Assembly: GCA_964514975.1 (NCBI GenBank)
Contig: CAZESS010000033.1
Coordinates: 1 to 11,437 of the forward strand
Reading direction: 5' to 3'
Length of the DNA: 11,437 bases
Source of the DNA: an uncultured Thermoplasmatales archaeon
Lineage (GTDB): Archaea; Thermoplasmatota; E2; UBA202; DSCA01
Part shown: in pieces, positions 72 to 11,313 of the stretch
Layout: every line of letters starts with the position of its first letter
Numbering within the stretch: the stretch's first letter is position 1
Made by a program: the position numbers and the translations under genes
Notes under the pieces: model-generated
The model's database searches: none
What the model saw: only the letters and a program-made list of their open reading frames with translations
Told to the model about the DNA's origin: nothing

Positions 72-1685
72 TCAGGTGAGATGGCGGATGATGTACCGGT
101 GGATGTCGTCGTTGATGGCTATCTGAGAGTTGTGGTCTGCGTCGCCATGTGGCCGCGCCTGGCCGGTGACGATGTACAGCGGAACACCCTCGAGGTAGGG
201 GCTCTCGGTGGGGACGAGGCCGTCCGTGGTATGGTTCACCCCGTCACCGTCGAAATCTTTTGGCTCTCCGATGCGAAACCCGATGTCTGAGCCGATGGCG
301 TGGTAGTCGACGAGGTCGCATCCCCGGTAGCCCATGGCCTCGAGGAACTTGGAATGGTAGACCATGTCCTGCATCTGGCAGGCCCACCAGGGCAGCGGAA
401 TGAAGTCCAGTCGCTCCAGGAACGTCTCGTTGAATCCGGGGGGTATCCCGTGGTTCATGGTGCCGACCATGAAGAGGTCGTCTATCTGATGGGGGCCGAT
501 GGATATGTCCGGGGTGCCGTCGCCGTGCCACGGCGTGCCGGGATCGCCAGGCTGCCATGAATTGTTCCAGAAGTCGACGTCTGCACCCGTTTGCTCTGCC
601 AGAAACCGGGCGACGAGGCCGCCCATGCTGTGTGTCACCACGTCGATCGTCTGGTTGGGGCTGTATCCGTTGTCGACGAGAGCGCGTTCGATGGCGTCGT
701 TGACCCTGCCCGCCATCCAGGGGATGTGGCGGTCGGCCCAGCCCGGTGTATAGCGGAGGTACTGTATCCCCGGCAGGCTGGTGTCAAAGTCGAGGATGGT
801 GTGTCCATGCCGCTGCAGCTTCTCGGTGATATTTGACCATGTCTGGAGAAGTTTTTTGGTCATCGAGCCAAACCAGCCGTGGATGAGCACCACAGGGTAC
901 GTGCCCGGTGTCTCAGGCTGCACCTGGATGGATGTCATGCCGTTGCATCCTGCGTATTCGTGCTCCCCTGTGAGGTTCTCATCCATCTGCACCACGCACC
1001 ATATCTCGGTTGTCTCGTTGACGTCGGAGAGATAGAACGGAACGCTGGCGCTGCCCTTTTTGTCGGTTGTTGTTTCCCTGACGCTGAGCGGCTGCACCGT
1101 GTTCCCGCCCGCGTTGAAAAAGGTCCACGAGAGCGGCTGCCCTGCCAGATGACGCCATTCCTCGCCGTGGCGACCCCTGAGCGTGGCTGTCAGCCTGACG
1201 GTTTCCCCGGCCGTCATCGCTGCCTGCTCAGCCGAGATTGTGACGTTGGTTTCGTATATCTCCGGGATGACCATGTAGCGCGCCCGGGCATGGTAGGTTT
1301 CACCCAGCCAGGTGGTACGCGCCTCGATGGTTACGTTGTATCTGCGGACGTCAACGTCCTCCGGTGCCGTATAGATTGCGGTGAGCTTTCCCGTGTCGTT
1401 GAGCGCGGAGGCACAGCGGAGCGAGCCCTTGCCGCCCGGGGCATCTATGTTCCAGGACACCGCGGTGGACAACGGCGCTCCACCGTTGATGGTGAAGGAG
1501 AGCTCGAGCGCGGCGGTTTCGCCCTCGTGCAGCATCGCCGTTGTCGGGTTGAGCGTGAACGTTGCCGCTGGCACCTCGCCTCCGCCGGAGGACTGCCAGT
1601 TGAGGGCGATGGACGAGGAGGCCAGCACGAACCCGATGACGAGGATAAACAGCATTTTCTGTGTACCCTTCATCGGTTGTATCAT
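72..1685 (-). CDS. Secreted or membrane-anchored alpha/beta-hydrolase (lipase/esterase-like) with N-terminal beta-rich, probably Ig-like, domains
   Basis: 537-aa ORF with a hydrophobic N-terminus (MLFILVIGFVLASSSIAL). Motifs: oxyanion region PVVLIHGW, nucleophile elbow VVTHSMGGLVAR (THSMG at 621-635), TDGLVP (candidate Asp) and ADHN (candidate His). The start is uncertain: in-frame ATGs at 1685, 1673 and 1655. Confidence 0.85.
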   Translation of the reverse strand: MIQPMKGTQKMLFILVIGFVLASSSIALNWQSSGGGEVPAATFTLNPTTAMLHEGETAALELSFTINGGAPLSTAVSWNIDAPGGKGSLRCASALNDTGKLTAIYTAPEDVDVRRYNVTIEARTTWLGETYHARARYMVIPEIYETNVTISAEQAAMTAGETVRLTATLRGRHGEEWRHLAGQPLSWTFFNAGGNTVQPLSVRETTTDKKGSASVPFYLSDVNETTEIWCVVQMDENLTGEHEYAGCNGMTSIQVQPETPGTYPVVLIHGWFGSMTKKLLQTWSNITEKLQRHGHTILDFDTSLPGIQYLRYTPGWADRHIPWMAGRVNDAIERALVDNGYSPNQTIDVVTHSMGGLVARFLAEQTGADVDFWNNSWQPGDPGTPWHGDGTPDISIGPHQIDDLFMVGTMNHGIPPGFNETFLERLDFIPLPWWACQMQDMVYHSKFLEAMGYRGCDLVDYHAIGSDIGFRIGEPKDFDGDGVNHTTDGLVPTESPYLEGVPLYIVTGQARPHGDADHNSQIAINDDIHRYIIRHLT

Positions 1686-4506: not shown

Positions 4507-4541
4507 GTGGTGTCCCTCAGTGCCGCTTCGAGGGCCAACAA

Positions 4542-4577
4542 TTTATATGCCTGCCGGGGTTGTATCCATGAGAGGAG
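4542..4577 (+). promoter_or_regulatory. TATA box, GTTGTATCCATG element and SD sequence of the C25 peptidase gene
   Basis: TTTATAT at 4542-4548, GTTGTATCCATG at 4559-4570, GAGGAG at 4572-4577 and in-frame ATG at 4582. Confidence 0.6.
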
Positions 4578-4581
4578 CACG

Positions 4582-5994
4582 ATGGAGCGAACCTGGATAC
4601 CTGTAGCATGCACGATTGCTGTCCTGCTCAGCTCGCCGCTGCTCGCCGGCATGGATACAATACAGCCGGCAGACCCGGTCGTCGCACCGACCGCCACGGA
4701 TGGCGAAGGCGATACATATGACCTCCTCGTCATTTCCCCGGCACAATGGACAGACGAGCTGCAGCGCCTGGCGGAGCACAAGGAACGATACGGGCTGGCG
4801 ACACAGGTCGTCACCCTCGACGAGATATACACCGGTGCCTGGTTCCCCGTCCAGGGACGCGACGACGCCGAGCGGATAAAATACTTCATCAGGTACACGC
4901 TCGAAAACTGGAGCATTACCTACGTCATGCTCGTCGGCGGCCGCCGTCCCTCGCTCCAGGGCGAGCCATGGTGGCTTCCCGCCCGGTACAGCCACATAGA
5001 GGACAACGTCGCAACCGAGGAGGACCGATATCTCAGCGACCTCTACTACGCGGACATCTACACCAGCGAGGGCGATTTTTCCTCATGGGACACCGACCGC
5101 GACGGCGTCTACGGGGAATGGCGGAAAAACCGGGCGGCGGAGGACATCCGCGACCTGTATCCCGACGTGTGCCTGGGCCGCCTCGCCTGCCGGAATGCCC
5201 GCGAGGTTGCCATCATGGTCGACAAAATCATCACCTACGAGACCGGCGTTTACGATGCAGGATGGCTGGACACCTTCGTCACCGTCGCTGGTGACACCTA
5301 CACCTTCAACGACTACAACGAGGGCGAGGTCGCCGCCCGACAGGCCATCGAGCGCATGCCCAACATGACCGCCGTACATCTCTGGACATCTGACGGGTCG
5401 CTCCAGGGATGGCGCGACGTCGCCGCCACGCTCGAAAACGGCTGCGGATTCATCTTTTTCGCCGGACATGGCAGCCCGACCACCTGGGGCACCCATCCCC
5501 CCAACGACCCCGACACATGGATATACGGCCTGCAGACCTTCCAGATGCCCCTGCTGAACAACGGTGGGAAGCTGCCCGTCTGCGTGGTCGCCGGCTGCCA
5601 CAACAGCCTGTTCAACGTCAGCCTGGCCAATCCCTCCTGGACCTTTGGCATCCCGGTCTACGAATGCTGGAGTTGGCGGCTGACCAGCCACCCGCGCGGC
5701 GGTGCCATCGCAACCCTGGGCAGCACCGGCCTTGGCTACGGCAAAGAAGACAAGTTCCATCCAGAGGACGGCGGCGCGGGCGACTGGCTCGACGTGCTGT
5801 TCTTCGACGCCTGTGGCCGGCACGGTATCGACATGCTCGGCCGGGCATGGCGCCACGCCATCGACACCTACCTCGACCAGTACCCGATAAACTGGAACGC
5901 GATCGCCTTCCACGACCCGGCGCTGGACGCCAAAACCGTGGAGGAATGGGTGCTCCTCGGTGACCCGTCGCTCAAAATCGGCGGCTATCCATAG
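4582..5994 (+). CDS. Secreted gingipain-like cysteine peptidase (family C25, clan CD)
   Basis: Start moved from 4507 to ATG 4582 because of the SD and the signal peptide MERTWIPVACTIAVLLSSPLLA (470 aa). Motifs: YDLLVISP, YVMLVG, SDLYYAD, PDVCLGRL, catalytic His in FAGHG (CAT 5467), catalytic Cys in VAGCH (TGC 5596), GGAIA and C-terminal LLGDPSL. Confidence 0.92.
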   Translation: MERTWIPVACTIAVLLSSPLLAGMDTIQPADPVVAPTATDGEGDTYDLLVISPAQWTDELQRLAEHKERYGLATQVVTLDEIYTGAWFPVQGRDDAERIKYFIRYTLENWSITYVMLVGGRRPSLQGEPWWLPARYSHIEDNVATEEDRYLSDLYYADIYTSEGDFSSWDTDRDGVYGEWRKNRAAEDIRDLYPDVCLGRLACRNAREVAIMVDKIITYETGVYDAGWLDTFVTVAGDTYTFNDYNEGEVAARQAIERMPNMTAVHLWTSDGSLQGWRDVAATLENGCGFIFFAGHGSPTTWGTHPPNDPDTWIYGLQTFQMPLLNNGGKLPVCVVAGCHNSLFNVSLANPSWTFGIPVYECWSWRLTSHPRGGAIATLGSTGLGYGKEDKFHPEDGGAGDWLDVLFFDACGRHGIDMLGRAWRHAIDTYLDQYPINWNAIAFHDPALDAKTVEEWVLLGDPSLKIGGYP

Positions 5995-8203: not shown

Positions 8204-9850
8204 CTATAAAATCCGTACGCTCCGGATGACGACCTCGCGGGCTGGCCAGTCCTGCATGCCATGTTTCATGGTGGTGTCAACCGAGGCGATGGAGCGCAGT
8301 GTGTCCATGCTGCCAATGATTCTGCCAAAGGCCGCATAGTCGCCGTCGAGATGGGGCTGCGCGCCGTTGCAGATGAAAAACTGGCTGGTGGCGCTGTCCG
8401 GGTCGCTCGTCCGGGCCATCGAGATGGCGCCGTCGACATGCAAAACGTCGGGATGTGCCTCCAGCTCTATGGGGCCATAGGGGCTCTCCATCCGGGTGCC
8501 GTTGGCCGTGTAGCCGCCGCCCTGGATGACGAAGCCGTCGATGACCCGGTGGAAGACCAGGCCGTCGTAGAAGCCGTCGCGGGCGAGCCTGACGAAGTTT
8601 TCCGTCGTCGCCGGCATTTTTTCGTGTTCGAGCGCGAGCACCATCGCGCCATGGGAGGTGTCCATAACCGCCAGGGTGACCTCGTCAAGGGGGTATGGTG
8701 CTGGTGCCGGCTGCCAGTCGACGGCGGGCCAGGGCACCCGAAGCTCGGGATAGGCGGGCAGATACATGCTTCCCTGGATGATTTTGATGCCGCCGGCATG
8801 GTCTGCCCAGTAGTTGCCCTGCCAGCTGTTCAGCAGCGAGTTTTCCAGCCATACGTCCTGGTTGTTGTCGGCCAGGTTGTTGTACCGGATGGTGTTGCGG
8901 TAGGCGTAGCTGGCGACGACGCCGGAGCCGTTGTACCAGTCCGCGGGGCCGCCCGTTGCCCCCATGATGGTGTTGTATTCCACCGTGTTGTGCATCGTCG
9001 GGCCGGGCCCGAGCATGACACCCCATTCCAGGTTGTCTTCGAGATGGTTGTAGCGAACGATGTTGCCGTCAGAGTATGCCTTGAACGCCATGCCGCAGCC
9101 CGGATGGCTGTAGACGTGGTTGCCCGCGATGGTGTTGCCTGACGAATAGGGCCAGAAGGTCATGCAGCAGTAGTTGTCATGCATGCTGTTTCCCGCGATG
9201 GTGTTGCCCGAGGAGGCGTTGAACACGAAGGCGATGAAGGCGTTGTCATAGATGTGGTTGCCCACGATGACGTTGCCGGCGCTGTGATGCAGATAGACGC
9301 CGGTTTCCCGGTTGCCATATATCTCGTTGTCCACGATATGGTTGCCATCGCTCCTGTCGAGATACAGGCCGCCCTGCTCATAGCAGTAGCGCTCCCGGCC
9401 GTTGTCCCTGACAATGCAGTCATGGATGGTGTTGCCATCGGAGTGCAGCCTGATGCCGCTGTCATGGTCGTCGCTGCCGCCCCCGGTCACCGTCAGACCT
9501 GAGACGGTGACGTTGTCCGCCCGCACGGTGACCACGTCGCTGCCGCCGAGCCCGTCGATAACGGTCGATGCCGCATCCGTCCCGGTGAGCGTGACCGATG
9601 CCGCTATCTCTATGGTTTCCGTATAGCTGCCGGGATACACGTATATCGTGACGCCGTCGCCTGCATCGTCGAGCGCCGCCTGGATGGTACTGTAGTTGCC
9701 CGGCCCGGAGCCGCCGACATACAATGTGTCGTTGCCCGCCGTCGCCGTCGGTGCTGCATGCTGCATGGCCGTCTGCTGCACGCCGTGCTGGACGGGCACA
9801 AACAGGATGCCAAGAGCAAGGATGCAGACAAGTTTGGCTGCCAGTGACAT
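8204..9850 (-). CDS. Secreted right-handed beta-helix (NosD/CASH-like) protein fused to a C-terminal cyclophilin-type peptidyl-prolyl isomerase
   Basis: Start at ATG 9850 (SD GGAGG at 9861-9865; signal peptide MSLAAKLVCILALGILFVPV; 548 aa). LYVGGSGPGNYSTIQAA is followed by many N-x-I-x-x-N repeats. The last ~160 aa (about 8204-8683) contain NFVRLA..GFYDGLVFHRVIDGFVIQGG, GAISMART..PDSATSQFFI and PHLDGDYAAFG. Confidence 0.92.
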   Translation of the reverse strand: MSLAAKLVCILALGILFVPVQHGVQQTAMQHAAPTATAGNDTLYVGGSGPGNYSTIQAALDDAGDGVTIYVYPGSYTETIEIAASVTLTGTDAASTVIDGLGGSDVVTVRADNVTVSGLTVTGGGSDDHDSGIRLHSDGNTIHDCIVRDNGRERYCYEQGGLYLDRSDGNHIVDNEIYGNRETGVYLHHSAGNVIVGNHIYDNAFIAFVFNASSGNTIAGNSMHDNYCCMTFWPYSSGNTIAGNHVYSHPGCGMAFKAYSDGNIVRYNHLEDNLEWGVMLGPGPTMHNTVEYNTIMGATGGPADWYNGSGVVASYAYRNTIRYNNLADNNQDVWLENSLLNSWQGNYWADHAGGIKIIQGSMYLPAYPELRVPWPAVDWQPAPAPYPLDEVTLAVMDTSHGAMVLALEHEKMPATTENFVRLARDGFYDGLVFHRVIDGFVIQGGGYTANGTRMESPYGPIELEAHPDVLHVDGAISMARTSDPDSATSQFFICNGAQPHLDGDYAAFGRIIGSMDTLRSIASVDTTMKHGMQDWPAREVVIRSVRIL

Positions 9851-9860
9851 TGTAATGATG

Positions 9861-9897
9861 CCTCCATGGATAGAACCGGCAGCGGTTTTTAAACCTT
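9861..9897 (-). promoter_or_regulatory. BRE/TATA promoter, GTTCTATCCATG element and SD of the beta-helix/cyclophilin gene
   Basis: Minus strand reads AAGGTTTAAAAA (TTTAAA starting at 9893), then GTTCTATCCATG at 9876-9865, then GGAGG. Confidence 0.6.
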
Positions 9898-9909
9898 GTT
9901 CGTGACGGC

Positions 9910-9943
9910 AAACCATTTATGTCAAGGGCTTTTTCCATCCATG
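9910..9943 (+). promoter_or_regulatory. Putative promoter of the flavodoxin gene (divergent from the fusion gene); probably leaderless
   Basis: AAACCATTTATG with TTTAT at 9916-9920, then TTTCCATCCATG ending in the ATG at 9941. Confidence 0.5.
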
Positions 9944-10408
9944 GACGTCCTTCTCGTGTGCAGGTCGATACATCATGGCAATACCCGCCGTATCGCCGAG
10001 GTGATGGCCGACGAGCTCGACGCACCGGTGCGGCAGCCCGCCGACATCACGGTCGACGACCTCACCGGAGCGGACCTCGTTGGCTTCGGGTCGGGCATCT
10101 ATTTCTGGCGGCACCATCGCAGCCTGCTCGACCTCGCCGACAGGTTGCCGGCGATGCCGGGGAAGCGCGCCTTTCTGTTCTCCACGAGCGGCATCGGCCC
10201 CGGATGGCTGTGGCATCGCTCGCTCCGCCGGAGGCTCCGCCGCAAAGGATTCGCCGTCATCGACGAATATGCCTGCCGCGGCCATGACACCTACGGCCCC
10301 CTCAAAATTGTTGGGGGCATCCACAAAAACCGGCCCGACCGGGATGACCTTGAACGAGCGAGAGATTTCGCCGCGCGGCTTGCAGCGCCGTCGCAGCGCA
10401 AAAATTAA
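9941..10408 (+). CDS. Flavodoxin family protein
   Basis: FMN phosphate loop SIHHGNTRRIA, plus DLVGFGSGIY, AFLFSTSG and C-terminal CRG.DTYGPLK.VGG....RP...DLERARDFA. ATG 9941 (155 aa) is preferred over 9896. Confidence 0.92.
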   Translation: MDVLLVCRSIHHGNTRRIAEVMADELDAPVRQPADITVDDLTGADLVGFGSGIYFWRHHRSLLDLADRLPAMPGKRAFLFSTSGIGPGWLWHRSLRRRLRRKGFAVIDEYACRGHDTYGPLKIVGGIHKNRPDRDDLERARDFAARLAAPSQRKN

Positions 10409-10431: not shown

Positions 10432-11313
10432 ATGGCATGTGGCGCTAGCCGAGCAATGCTTGTCCTGGCCACCGGTATGCTGCTGCTGGCAGGCTGCACC
10501 CCGGCGCTGTCCGCACGGCACCGCTCGCCCCTGCCTGCTGCTGGCGATGGCTCCGTCGTCCACCGGGCGGTTGTCATAGCTGCTGGCGAGCCACGCCGCG
10601 ACACCCGGACCGTTGACGCCGTCTGCGACGCCCTCGTCGGGCATGGCTGGCAGCGGGACAACATGTTGCTGCTGCTCGGAGACGACGCCACACGGGATGC
10701 GATTCTGGAGGAGCCGTTCACCTGGCTGCACAACCAGGGAGAGGACGCCGACGATGTCACCCTGTTCTTTTTCTCGCTGCACGGCGACCAGACCCCGGAC
10801 GTGGTGCCGCTCGACGAGCCGGACAGCCTGGACGAATATGTATGCCCGGCCGACTTCGAGCCCGGCAACGCTGCCACATATCTGCTGGACGACGCCCTCG
10901 CGGATCGCTTCACATCCATCCGGTCGGACAGTCTCGTCGCCATTTTTGAGACCTGTCACAGCGGCGGCATGCTCGACGGCTCCAGCGACCTGTGCGCGTC
11001 GGGGCGCGTCGTCCTGGCGTCCTGCGCCGCCGACGAGACCTCTTTCCCTGTCTATCTCAACGGCCGCTGGCTGTTCCCGCACTACCTGGCTCAGGGGCTC
11101 CGGGGGCCCGCCGACACCGGCGGCGACGGCCAGATATCCGCGGAGGAAGCATTCCGGTATGCCGAGCAGCCCACCATTATCCGCTCCGCCGTCACCGGAA
11201 TTTTTTTGTTTCTGCTGACGCCCACGCCCCTGCTCGTCCAGCATCCCCGGATGTATGACGGCTGGCCCAGCGCGGCGAACAACACCGCGATGCTGGACAT
11301 CGTGCCAGTATGA
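10432..11313 (+). CDS. Caspase-family (peptidase C14, clan CD) protein with putative lipoprotein signal
   Basis: LLLGDDATRDAI, DDVTLFFFSLHG (His, CAC 10780), DEYVCPAD, IFETCHSGG (Cys, TGT 10954), RVVLASC..DE.S, ADTGGDGQISAEEAF.YA and QHP. The N-terminal hydrophobic stretch ends in LAGC. Confidence 0.88.
   Translation: MACGASRAMLVLATGMLLLAGCTPALSARHRSPLPAAGDGSVVHRAVVIAAGEPRRDTRTVDAVCDALVGHGWQRDNMLLLLGDDATRDAILEEPFTWLHNQGEDADDVTLFFFSLHGDQTPDVVPLDEPDSLDEYVCPADFEPGNAATYLLDDALADRFTSIRSDSLVAIFETCHSGGMLDGSSDLCASGRVVLASCAADETSFPVYLNGRWLFPHYLAQGLRGPADTGGDGQISAEEAFRYAEQPTIIRSAVTGIFLFLLTPTPLLVQHPRMYDGWPSAANNTAMLDIVPV

What the first reader, a model, noticed from the sequence alone, without database searches (positions are those of the whole stretch)
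8204..9850. Secreted beta-helix protein carrying its own cyclophilin PPIase domain
Seen in sequence: signal peptide, about 350 aa of NosD/CASH-like parallel beta-helix, a Pro-rich segment (WPAVDWQPAPAPYP) and a complete cyclophilin domain, all in one uninterrupted frame. The catalytic Arg (FHRV) is intact, and His replaces the cyclosporin-binding Trp (PHLD). Established: cyclophilins are usually stand-alone or fused to intracellular modules. From memory, a DWxP-x-x-x-PY segment normally ends archaeal NosD-type proteins, which suggests the PPIase was appended. Inference: this may be an extracellular or cell-surface foldase tethered by a glycan- or S-layer-binding beta-helix, serving secreted hydrolases or folding itself in cis. 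I do not recall a characterised protein with this architecture.
Basis: partly seen in the sequence, partly recalled or inferred. Interest (0 to 1): 0.75.

Follow-up and report, generated by a model that had tools for sequence, protein, structure and literature searches.

The report
Exported archaeal beta-helix–cyclophilin fusion protein
This is a real gene of an uncultured Thermoplasmatota archaeon for an exported protein in which an apparently active prolyl-isomerase (cyclophilin) sits at a fixed distance on the end of a beta-helix surface module; this design recurs in related archaea but has never been studied.

Summary
Window 8204-9850 (-) is one uninterrupted 548-codon gene. It encodes an N-terminal hydrophobic export signal, a right-handed parallel beta-helix (residues 40-392), the cap motif WPAVDWQPAPAPYP, and a complete cyclophilin (393-548). 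Pfam E-values are 7.5e-35 and 1.4e-44.

The junction is not an assembly artefact. Contigs from three sequencing runs bridge it, and the fused ORF is present in all 4 other genomes of the genus.

The architecture is not rare. 101 of 120 listed database relatives carry both domains, and 18 of 131 sampled genomes of the class encode it. All co-linear matches lie in Thermoplasmatota MAGs, where NCBI labels them only "peptidylprolyl isomerase". I found no paper describing it.

- Catalytic residues are invariant in 98 of 98 fusions.
- The helix-to-cyclophilin junction has a fixed length: 16 residues in 92 of 98, 13 in the other 6.
- A reverse-order fusion also exists.

The fused cyclophilin groups with exported stand-alone archaeal cyclophilins.

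Best reading (about 0.55): an extracytoplasmic foldase mounted rigidly on a non-catalytic beta-helix scaffold. It is a new variant of a known kind (surface or periplasmic cyclophilins) and of moderate interest.

The parts
8204..9850 (-). Whole coding sequence (548 codons plus stop at 8204-8206) of the beta-helix-cyclophilin fusion protein
   Evidence: The frame is open and both Pfam domains score far over their cut-offs. Fused ORFs of 556-573 aa occur in all 4 other genomes of the genus.
9886..9893 (-). TTTAAAAA, a TATA-box-like element about 40 nt upstream of the ATG, in the 90-nt divergent intergenic region
   Evidence: Read directly. Its function as an archaeal promoter element is inferred.
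9861..9865 (-). GGAGG, a Shine-Dalgarno-like element 10 nt before ATG 9850
   Evidence: Read directly. Its function is inferred.
9782..9850 (-). N-terminal export signal (residues 1-23: charged Lys6, hydrophobic core, ..VQHG)
   Evidence: It is the only hydrophobic segment and is modelled as helix 3-16 followed by a low-confidence stretch 18-38. Homologues have comparable N-termini, several with VQAG. Whether it is cleaved or kept as a membrane anchor was not determined.
8675..9733 (-). Right-handed parallel beta-helix domain (residues 40-392), long form with two extra blocks (about 216-262 and 283-310) and a conserved Cys228/Cys252 pair
   Evidence: Pfam Beta_helix and NosD. AF2 model pLDDT 95.4. 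Best structural matches are AlgE4 A-module at Z 35.1 and NosD 7o0y_A at Z 35.0.
8690..8731 (-). C-terminal cap motif of the helix, WPAVDWQPAPAPYP (residues 374-387)
   Evidence: for the position. The same motif ends stand-alone relatives and two paralogues in the same genome.
8207..8674 (-). Cyclophilin-type PPIase domain (residues 393-548)
   Evidence: Pfam 1.4e-44. E. coli PpiA 1clh at 1.2e-28. Foldseek TM 0.83-0.90 to solved cyclophilins.
8546..8548 (-). Codon of Arg435 (FHRV), the catalytic arginine
   Evidence: Aligned to the FHRV Arg of E. coli PpiA. Invariant in 98 of 98 cyclophilin-bearing rows.
8351..8353 (-). Codon of His500 (PHLD), at the position of the cyclosporin-contacting Trp of human CypA and the Phe of E. 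coli PpiA
   Evidence: alignment. The position varies in the family: H 31, R 24, G 16, F 12, Y 6. The equivalence to Trp121 is recalled.

Best explanation
The gene encodes an exported two-domain protein of a Thermoplasmatota archaeon.

**Proposed mechanism.**
1. A Sec-type N-terminal signal takes the unfolded chain across the single membrane. The signal is either cleaved or kept as an anchor; which one is unknown.
2. Outside the cell, a roughly 350-residue right-handed parallel beta-helix of the CASH/NosD type folds.
3. A PpiA-like cyclophilin is held directly on the helix's C-terminal cap, through a junction of fixed length and hence probably in a fixed orientation.
4. The cyclophilin is catalytically competent. 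It speeds up cis/trans isomerisation of prolyl bonds in proteins that emerge unfolded at the cell surface, without ATP.
5. The beta-helix shows no conserved catalytic constellation. It most likely serves as a rigid scaffold that positions the enzyme at the envelope and/or binds clients.

The most obvious candidate clients are the many secreted beta-helix paralogues of the same genome, together with the protein's own helix.

**Shown here:** the domain make-up, the export signal, the conserved active site, the fixed junction and the phylogenetic origin from exported cyclophilins.

**Inferred:** enzymatic activity, location after export, the scaffold role and the identity of the clients.
For: **The gene and the fusion are real.**
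- One open frame carries both domains.
- The junction (about 8675) is bridged by contigs of three runs. X1 record 3 covers 8369-9950 with 0 differences and is probably the source sample. X2 record 14 covers 8525-9196 with 36 differences and no gaps. X3 record 21 covers 8577-8737.
- The fused ORF occurs in all 4 other genomes of the genus and in 18 of 131 genomes of the class.

**Export.**
- There is a single N-terminal hydrophobic segment, six N-x-S/T sequons and an acidic pI of 4.7.
- A Cys228/Cys252 pair is conserved in the long-form helices.
- Relatives have comparable N-termini.

**An active enzyme is likely.**
- R435, F440, Q443, A479, R480, T481, Q490, F492, L501 and Y505 are invariant in 98 of 98 fusions.
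- The closest solved relative is the E. coli periplasmic cyclophilin PpiA (1.2e-28). Foldseek TM to solved cyclophilins is 0.83-0.90.

**Rigid coupling.**
- The spacing from the Pro of DW.P to the first cyclophilin strand is 16 residues in 92 of 98 fusions and 13 in the other 6, although overall identity is only about 36-50%.
- The full-length AF2 model has pLDDT 90.7 and pTM 0.87.

**Origin.** In the cyclophilin-domain tree, all 21 fused domains plus the window fall in one 27-row group (SH-aLRT 88). That group lies inside a clade of Thermoplasmatota cyclophilins with N-terminal export extensions. It is separate from the clade of short cyclophilins that have no N-terminal extension and are presumably cytosolic.

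**Functional link between the two modules.**
- A reverse-order fusion exists: signal, then cyclophilin 65-212, then helix 418-544, ending with the same cap motif (L041).
- The own genome gives more than 25 tblastn hits to beta-helix paralogues.

**Helix as scaffold.** Family-wide conserved positions are mostly the Asn ladder, Gly/Pro turns and N-cap residues. Its fold matches enzymes, adhesins and NosD equally well.

**Precedent.** Surface-exposed cyclophilin PpiA of Lactococcus lactis shows PPIase and chaperone activity in vitro (PMC3307742, abstract read).
Against: - No activity, localisation or expression data exist.
- The model coordinates and PAE were not available to me. The orientation of the active site, and even the rigidity of the interface, rest on pTM and junction length alone.
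- The -1 residue of the likely signal-peptidase site is His (VQH|G), which is not canonical, so cleavage is uncertain.
- Beta-helix folding is not generally limited by prolyl isomerisation. For pectin methylesterase PemA, two PPIases had no effect on refolding (PMC8392785, passages read). The contrary case, pectate lyase C, I saw only as reference titles in that paper.
- L. lactis PpiA had almost no phenotype in vivo, so a foldase of this kind may be dispensable.
- The long-form helices carry strongly conserved subgroup-specific blocks (WP, PGCG, K257, W276, GPT, W305). These could form a binding or catalytic site that I cannot evaluate without coordinates.
- No conserved gene partner exists outside the genus.
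Confidence: 0.55

Rival explanations
1. Intramolecular foldase only. The cyclophilin acts in cis on slow prolyl bonds of its own beta-helix after export and has no other clients. The protein's real function then lies in the helix, for example as an adhesin or a glycan binder.
For: - The fixed 16-residue junction and the high pTM keep the enzyme next to the helix's C-terminal cap, which is Pro-rich (WPAVDWQPAPAPYP).
- The helix has 15 prolines.
- Fusions occur in both orders.
- Pectate lyase C folding is reported to be limited by proline isomerisation (seen only as reference titles in PMC8392785).
Against: - Close stand-alone helices with the same cap exist without any cyclophilin, so the helix can fold without a fused one.
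- A single-turnover catalyst would not obviously keep all substrate-groove residues invariant in 98 of 98 sequences.
- PemA beta-helix refolding was not accelerated by PPIases.
Confidence: 0.15
2. The beta-helix is the working part: a carbohydrate-active enzyme or an adhesin of the CASH class. The cyclophilin serves as a protein-binding or anchoring module, for example gripping Pro-containing envelope proteins, rather than as a foldase.
For: - The best structural neighbours include the mannuronan C-5 epimerase AlgE4 (Z 35.1), PL6 lyases, phage tailspike depolymerases and the adhesin PfbA.
- The long-form subgroup has strongly conserved extra blocks.
- Other exported cyclophilins in the phylum are joined to PKD and TSP3 surface modules.
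Against: - No acidic or basic constellation is conserved across the whole fusion family. Nearly invariant helix positions are mostly structural.
- Identity to any solved enzyme is at most 20%.
- NosD, which is not an enzyme of that kind, matches equally well (Z 35.0).
- Complete conservation of the catalytic Arg and partners points to catalysis rather than mere binding.
Confidence: 0.17
3. A NosD-type maturation factor: a periplasmic partner of an ABC transporter that assembles a copper-sulfur centre, which has acquired a PPIase.
For: Pfam NosD 3.8e-20, TIGR04247 2.2e-28 and the NosD structure 7o0y_A at Z 35.0.
Against: - The TIGR04247 score is 98.9 bits against a cut-off of 300.
- No ABC-transporter genes neighbour it in the window.
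- The genome holds more than 25 hits to such helices, which is typical of surface-protein families.
- nos_propeller (NosZ) was not found in the genome, but the control genomes were silent too, so this is inconclusive.
Confidence: 0.03
4. Assembly chimera, or two genes read through: the fusion does not exist in the organism.
For: The window is a short (11.4 kb) metagenome-assembled contig.
Against: - Independent contigs from other runs bridge the junction without gaps.
- The same fused ORF is present in 4 of 4 congeneric genomes, in 16 co-linear loci in named MAGs, and in 101 of 120 listed database relatives.
- The junction length is conserved.
Confidence: 0.01

Closest known systems
E. coli periplasmic cyclophilin PpiA (PDB 1clh, 1j2a) and cytoplasmic PpiB (2nul)
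   Same: They are the closest solved sequences to residues 395-548 (1.2e-28) and share the fold (TM 0.83-0.90). They share the bacterial-type active-site pattern (..FHRV....MART.., Tyr in place of the human His), and a non-Trp residue sits at the cyclosporin position. PpiA is likewise exported.
   Different: They are single-domain proteins. The NCBIfam equivalog scores (121.9 and 101.3 bits) are far below the cut-offs of 308 and 297, so this is not an orthologue. The target carries a 350-residue beta-helix in front and comes from an archaeon with a single membrane.
Surface cyclophilins of Gram-positive bacteria (Lactococcus lactis PpiA, streptococcal SlrA)
   Same: They are extracytoplasmic cyclophilins of single-membrane cells, proposed to fold exported proteins. 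L. lactis PpiA is surface-exposed and shows PPIase and chaperone activity in vitro (PMC3307742, abstract). SlrA is named in PMC11853100, which I saw as a search listing and abstract start only. The second cyclophilin of the own genome (C5) has a lipobox-like signal of this kind.
   Different: Those proteins are tethered by a lipid or membrane anchor and have no beta-helix. The target has no lipobox and is mounted on a large beta-helix instead.
NosD, periplasmic beta-helix subunit of the NosDFY machinery (PDB 7o0y, 7osf)
   Same: It has the same fold class and a similar length (Z 35.0, rmsd 2.5 over 304 residues, 20% identity). The Pfam NosD model matches.
   Different: The score is below the NosD family cut-off (98.9 against 300 bits). 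There are no nosF/nosY neighbours. NosD has no cyclophilin.
Stand-alone archaeal CASH/NosD-like secreted beta-helix proteins (e.g. P0012, P0014, P0016, P0019; own-genome paralogues on contig C12)
   Same: They are 46-53% identical to the helix domain. They have the same signal peptide, the same long-form inserts and the same terminal ..PW..DW.PA..PY cap.
   Different: They stop 0-15 residues after the cap, whereas the target continues into a cyclophilin. In the helix tree they are nested among fused forms.
Multidomain foldases such as SurA, PrsA and trigger factor (a PPIase domain flanked by chaperone modules)
   Same: The design logic is the same: a PPIase domain joined to a larger module that binds or positions clients. 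This is recalled knowledge, not tested here.
   Different: They use other PPIase families (parvulin, FKBP), other partner folds and other lineages. No homology is implied.

Membership tests
Cyclophilin-type PPIase (Pfam PF00160) | Domain model matched above the curated cut-off over its full length | tested here: met
   152.6 bits against a cut-off of 21.7; profile positions 3-158 of 159.
Cyclophilin-type PPIase (Pfam PF00160) | Catalytic Arg and the substrate-groove residues (Phe, Gln, Ala-x-x, Gln, Phe, Leu, Tyr/His) | tested here: met
   Aligned to E. coli PpiA. R435, F440, Q443, A479, Q490, F492, L501 and Y505 are invariant in 98 of 98 fusions. Which residues are catalytic is recalled knowledge.
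Cyclophilin-type PPIase (Pfam PF00160) | Eight-stranded beta-barrel fold | tested here: met
   The AF2 model matches solved cyclophilins with target-normalised TM 0.83-0.90 and rmsd 1.6-2.6.
Cyclophilin-type PPIase (Pfam PF00160) | Measurable peptidyl-prolyl isomerase activity | not testable with these tools
   Needs a biochemical assay.
PpiA / PpiB equivalogs (NCBIfam NF008151, NF008057) | Score over the equivalog cut-off | tested here: not met
   121.9 against 308 bits and 101.3 against 297 bits. Related, but not an orthologue.
Right-handed parallel beta-helix / CASH (Pfam PF13229, PF05048) | Repeat models over the cut-off and a beta-helix fold | tested here: met
   Beta_helix 120.3 bits against 25.9; NosD 72.7 against 23.6. 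Domain model pLDDT 95.4. Z 35 to AlgE4 and NosD.
NosD, nitrous-oxide reductase maturation (TIGR04247) | Score over the family cut-off | tested here: not met
   98.9 bits against a cut-off of 300.
NosD, nitrous-oxide reductase maturation (TIGR04247) | Genomic association with nosF/nosY and nosZ | tested here: inconclusive
   No ABC-transporter genes in the 11.4-kb window. nos_propeller was not found in the genome, but none of the control genomes rang either.
Lipoprotein-anchored surface cyclophilins (SlrA / PpiA type) | Lipobox Cys at the end of the signal peptide | tested here: not met
   The only N-terminal Cys is residue 9, inside the hydrophobic core, and it is not conserved in homologues. 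The paralogue on C5 does have ..SAFGGC.
Carbohydrate-active beta-helix enzymes (epimerase AlgE/AlgG, PL6 lyases, tailspike depolymerases) | Conserved catalytic residues of the respective family | tested here: inconclusive
   Only the fold matches, at no more than 20% identity. AlgG NCBIfam scores 18 bits against 700.

The most novel reading that the evidence does not exclude
Exported cyclophilins of these archaea form a dedicated foldase-client system with the expanded family of secreted parallel beta-helix proteins. On this reading, the enzyme is welded at a fixed geometry to the growing end of a beta-helix. It catalyses the prolyl isomerisations that limit ATP-free folding of such helices outside the cell, first in cis and then in trans on the more than 25 paralogue hits in the genome. 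The fusion is therefore kept in either domain order. If true, this would be the first natural case of a built-in prolyl isomerase for beta-helix folding, and a handle on how archaea fold surface proteins without a periplasm.
Probability: 0.22. Interest if true: 0.6.

Novelty: new variant of a known kind. Interest (0 to 1): 0.4.

Why it matters
How archaea fold proteins after Sec export, outside a single membrane and without ATP, is largely unknown.

Published surveys of archaeal prolyl isomerases mention neither signal peptides nor this architecture. The PPIase survey has 0 occurrences of helix, NosD or signal peptide. The N. maritimus paper has 0 of extracellular or periplasm, and it reports multidomain archaeal cyclophilins only in Thaumarchaeota.

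This gene and its relatives show that one class of Thermoplasmatota carries cyclophilins with N-terminal export-type signals. These occur stand-alone with lipobox-like signals, or fused to beta-helix, PKD or TSP3 surface modules. In the beta-helix fusion the two domains are coupled with a conserved geometry.

That gives a concrete, testable candidate for an archaeal extracellular foldase, and a natural system for asking whether prolyl isomerisation limits beta-helix folding.

The finding is not a new principle. It extends the known class of periplasmic and surface cyclophilins, and the sequences are already in public databases under a generic name.

Tried and rejected
- **RNA evidence.** The look-up of sequencing runs listed no RNA holder, so expression remains open.
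- **ESM Atlas**. The best hits were 0.82 or lower, all plain NosD/beta-helix clusters. No cluster with the fusion was returned, which is not informative.
- **The search of earlier findings** by place and by sequence. Nothing relevant came back: two unrelated windows sharing 4 of 110 words.
- **The search for related loci with the 105-row alignment** failed because no conserved stretch was found. I repeated it with a 16-row alignment.
- **'This genome has no FKBP and no parvulin'.** PF00254 and PF00639 gave no match at E <= 0.001. I rejected the FKBP part after finding weak FKBP_C hits in roughly 350-aa ORFs in 27 of 39 genomes of the order and a 75%-identical homologue in the own genome at C9:20089-21180 (Pfam FKBP_C 4e-6 on the congeneric ORF).
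- **NosZ search.** PF18764 was not found, but the control genomes were silent, so this is inconclusive.
- **Conserved operon partner.** Only RNase H, MgsA_C and the flavodoxin-like gene are syntenic, and only within the genus (3 loci). Of the other 17 fusion loci examined, one (L026) has a C25 peptidase upstream. No partner can be proposed.
- **Foldseek with the full-length model** returned only cyclophilins, so the helix had to be modelled alone.
- **Not done.**
  - Complex prediction, because no specific pair claim depended on it.
  - The search of protein representatives.
  - A 'longer' or 'shorter' homologue search.
  - No signal-peptide predictor was available.
Full report
**1. What is in the sequence**

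The minus strand carries an ORF 8204-9916. The frame from ATG 9850 gives 548 residues without a stop.

ATG 9850 is the likely start:
- GGAGG lies 10 nt upstream and a TTTAAAAA box about 40 nt upstream, in the 90-nt gap to a divergently transcribed flavodoxin-like gene.
- The four closest database homologues begin MS.AAKL.

Pfam finds three domain models:
- Pro_isomerase at residues 395-546 (1.4e-44).
- Beta_helix (7.5e-35).
- NosD (3.8e-20).

The cap motif WPAVDWQPAPAPYP is at 374-387, FHRV at 433 and PHLD at 499. The opposite-strand ORF that I scanned (8261-9142, +) has no Pfam match.

**2. Is the fusion real?**

The window is a whole 11.4-kb contig of a 1.96-Mb, 98.9%-complete metagenome-assembled genome.

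Contigs of three public runs bridge the domain junction near 8675:
- X1 record 3 covers 8369-9950 with no difference. This run is probably the source sample and so is not independent.
- X2 record 14 covers 8525-9196 with 36 substitutions and no gap.
- X3 record 21 covers 8577-8737.

The same fused ORF (556-573 aa, 81-84% identity over the junction and cyclophilin) is in all 4 other genomes of the genus. An assembly chimera can be dismissed.

**3. How common and where**

- **Database relatives.** Of the 120 best relatives listed from the 5.8-billion-protein database, 101 carry PF00160 together with PF13229 or PF05048. Ten have only the helix and 9 have only PF00160. The NCBI names seen are 'peptidylprolyl isomerase [Thermoplasmatota archaeon]'.
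- **One genome per species.** Among the best 80 of 576 confirmed loci, 16 match the query co-linearly over helix and cyclophilin. All 16 are Thermoplasmatota, Thermoplasmata or Thermoplasmatales MAGs. All bacterial loci (Chloroflexota, Myxococcota, Pseudomonadota and others) match the cyclophilin alone.
- **The window's class.** A profile search of 131 genomes found the helix-then-cyclophilin ORF in 18:
  - Own family: genus g1 5 of 5, g3 4 of 5, g5 1 of 1; none seen in g2 and g4.
  - A second family, f3: g20 7 of 9, and g32 with two copies.
  - None in the 25 genomes of the sister family f2 of the same order, which have only stand-alone cyclophilins.

The design is therefore frequent but patchy, and as far as sampled it is confined to one archaeal phylum.

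**4. The cyclophilin**

- **Closest solved relatives.** Its closest solved relatives by sequence are E. coli periplasmic PpiA (1clh, 1.2e-28) and PpiB. The full-length AF2 model (pLDDT 90.7, pTM 0.87) superposes on solved cyclophilins with target TM 0.83-0.90.
- **Active site.** In a 105-row alignment (98 fusions, 7 stand-alone helices), the catalytic Arg435 and the groove residues F440, Q443, A479, R480, T481, Q490, F492, L501 and Y505 are invariant in 98 of 98.
- **Cyclosporin position.** The position of the human cyclosporin-contacting Trp (an equivalence recalled from memory) is His here. It is free to vary: H 31, R 24, G 16, F 12, Y 6.
- **Orthology.** The domain scores far below the PpiA and PpiB equivalog cut-offs, so it is a relative and not an orthologue.

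**5. The beta-helix**

Modelled alone, residues 40-392 give pLDDT 95.4.

An all-against-representatives structural search puts two hits on top:
- AlgE4 epimerase A-module: Z 35.1, 19% identity.
- NosD: Z 35.0, 20% identity.

These are followed closely by tailspike depolymerases, PL6 lyases and the adhesin PfbA. This is the generic CASH right-handed beta-helix and does not single out a function.

It is not NosD proper. TIGR04247 scores 98.9 bits against a cut-off of 300, and there are no ABC-transporter neighbours.

Positions conserved across the whole fusion family are the Asn ladder, turn glycines and prolines, and the N-cap.

The window's protein belongs to a 'long form' with two extra blocks (about 216-262 and 283-310). 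These blocks carry a conserved Cys228/Cys252 pair and WP, PGCG, K257, W276, GPT and W305. A Cys pair in adjacent coils fits an extracellular disulfide (inference). Without coordinates I could not tell whether these blocks form a site.

**6. Export**

- The only hydrophobic segment is residues 1-22. AF2 makes it a helix followed by a low-confidence stretch 18-38.
- Relatives, fused or not, have similar N-termini, several with a canonical VQA|G. Here the -1 residue would be His, so cleavage against retention as an anchor is open.
- Six N-x-S/T sequons and a pI of 4.7 fit a surface glycoprotein. That fit is an inference.
- There is no C-terminal anchor. The protein ends with the cyclophilin.

**7. 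The junction**

Stand-alone relatives end 0-6 residues after ..PW.N(I/V)DW.PA..PYD.

The distance from the Pro of DW.P to the conserved Thr of the first cyclophilin strand is exactly 16 residues in 92 of 98 fusions and 13 in the other 6, although the sequences are only about 36-50% identical overall. There is no variable linker. Together with pTM 0.87, this argues for a conserved, rigid packing of the enzyme on the helix's C-terminal cap.

**8. History**

*Cyclophilin-domain tree* (111 rows, IQ-TREE quick, LG+G4):
- All 21 fused domains plus the window fall in one 27-row group (SH-aLRT 88, not starred).
- That group also holds two contig-truncated fusions, the reverse-order protein and three stand-alone exported cyclophilins.
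- It lies inside a 55-row clade of Thermoplasmatota cyclophilins with N-terminal extensions. Within that clade, a starred 18-row branch holds the own genome's second cyclophilin and two Dehalococcoidia sequences.
- The short cyclophilins without an N-terminal extension form a separate starred clade.

The fused enzyme thus derives from exported cyclophilins.

*Helix tree* (41 rows):
- The long-form clade (18 rows, 98*) is nested among short fused forms.
- Its 10 stand-alone members form two groups, so at least two changes are needed.
- The simplest reading is loss of the cyclophilin in those lineages. However, the sample was drawn by similarity to a fused query and the root is not established.

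*Other architectures:*
- One MAG locus (L041) encodes the reverse order: signal, cyclophilin (65-212), then helix (418-544) ending in the same cap motif. Two genomes of the class have 595-aa ORFs that look the same.
- Other exported cyclophilins in the phylum are joined to PKD (L032) or TSP3 repeats (L040).

**9. Context**

- Synteny (RNase H and MgsA_C downstream, flavodoxin-like gene divergent) holds only within the genus. No operon partner emerges.
- The own genome gives more than 25 tblastn hits to beta-helix paralogues, the best at 32% identity. Only this gene carries a cyclophilin.
- Its second cyclophilin (C5:92447-92920) has a lipobox-like signal ..SAFGGC.

**10. Mechanism**

The best-supported reading is an extracytoplasmic, ATP-independent prolyl isomerase held at a fixed geometry on a non-catalytic beta-helix scaffold. 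It would be the archaeal counterpart of periplasmic PpiA and of the surface cyclophilins of Gram-positive bacteria. L. lactis PpiA is surface-exposed and shows PPIase and chaperone activity in vitro, but has little phenotype (PMC3307742, abstract).

Fusion in both orders to the same helix family, and the expansion of that family in the genome, make secreted beta-helices themselves the most obvious candidate clients.

The literature on this point is mixed:
- Refolding of the beta-helix PemA was not accelerated by two PPIases (PMC8392785, passages).
- That paper's reference list cites work entitled as showing slow proline isomerisation in pectate lyase C. I saw the titles only.

The rivals are a purely cis-acting foldase, a helix enzyme or adhesin with the cyclophilin as a binding module, a NosD-type role, and an artefact. 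They are weighed in their own sections of this report.

**11. Novelty**

- I found no paper on this architecture. 'cyclophilin' plus 'NosD' returned 0 papers. A four-term search returned nothing relevant.
- The 2021 survey of archaeal PPIases has 0 occurrences of helix, NosD or signal peptide.
- The N. maritimus cyclophilin paper reports multidomain archaeal cyclophilins only in Thaumarchaeota.
- These searches cover open-access papers and bioRxiv only. InterPro could not be queried.

The proteins are already in public databases under a generic automatic name. I class the finding as a new variant of a known kind, of moderate interest.

Noticed in passing
G000:C5:92447-92920 (-); locus L002 1492-2109 (-): The genome's only other cyclophilin (54% identical to the fused domain) also carries an N-terminal signal, with a lipobox-like ..SAFGGC followed by a Gly-rich linker. 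Both cyclophilins of this organism therefore look exported. The short cyclophilin without an N-terminal extension, which sits in tandem with the exported one in many other Thermoplasmatota loci (e.g. L045, L048, L050, L052, L055-57), was not found here.
   Followed up: partly
G000:C9:20089-21180; relatives L097:13-1107, L098: Pfam FKBP_C and Rotamase gave no match in the own genome at E <= 0.001. A divergent FKBP-like ORF of about 360 aa is nevertheless present (75% identical to a congeneric ORF that scores FKBP_C 4e-6). It has an N-terminal transmembrane segment and many N-x-S/T sequons. All three PPIase-like genes detected thus look extracytoplasmic, and no cytosolic PPIase was found with these searches.
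   Followed up: partly
window 72-1685 (-), 4507-5994 (+), 10432-11313 (+): Three other genes on this 11-kb contig encode likely exported hydrolases. One is an alpha/beta hydrolase with an MG2 domain and a signal peptide. One is a Peptidase_C25 (gingipain family, 5e-60) with a signal peptide after an internal Met. One is a caspase-like C14 protein with a lipobox..LLAGC. One unrelated MAG (L026) also has a C25 peptidase (40% identity) directly upstream of its fusion gene.
   Followed up: partly
L041:448-2232 (+): This is a reverse-order fusion in another Thermoplasmatota MAG: signal peptide, cyclophilin (65-212), then a NosD/beta-helix (418-544) ending in the same ..DW.PA..PY cap. ORFs of 595 aa in G232 and G382 look the same.
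   Followed up: partly
L032:166-1983 (+); L040:3386-4495 (+); L067:3836-5098 (+): These loci show further exported cyclophilin architectures in the phylum. L032 has an unknown N-terminal domain, then cyclophilin, then PKD. L040 has a Cys-rich segment, then a TM segment, then TSP3 repeats, then cyclophilin. L067 has a signal, then cyclophilin, then an unknown domain, then a C-terminal TM segment.
   Followed up: partly
G000 contig C12 (about 23.6-53.9 kb) and contigs C1, C4, C16, C25: The genome holds a large paralogous family of secreted NosD/CASH-type beta-helix genes: more than 25 tblastn hits, seven of them on C12, with the best only 32% identical to the target. Two of those on C12 end with the PW..DW.P cap.
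   Followed up: partly
window 9813-9819: In the roughly 95%-identical relative seen in run X2, one base is inserted after 9813 and one is deleted at 9819. This is a compensated two-codon frame change inside the signal-peptide region.
   Followed up: no
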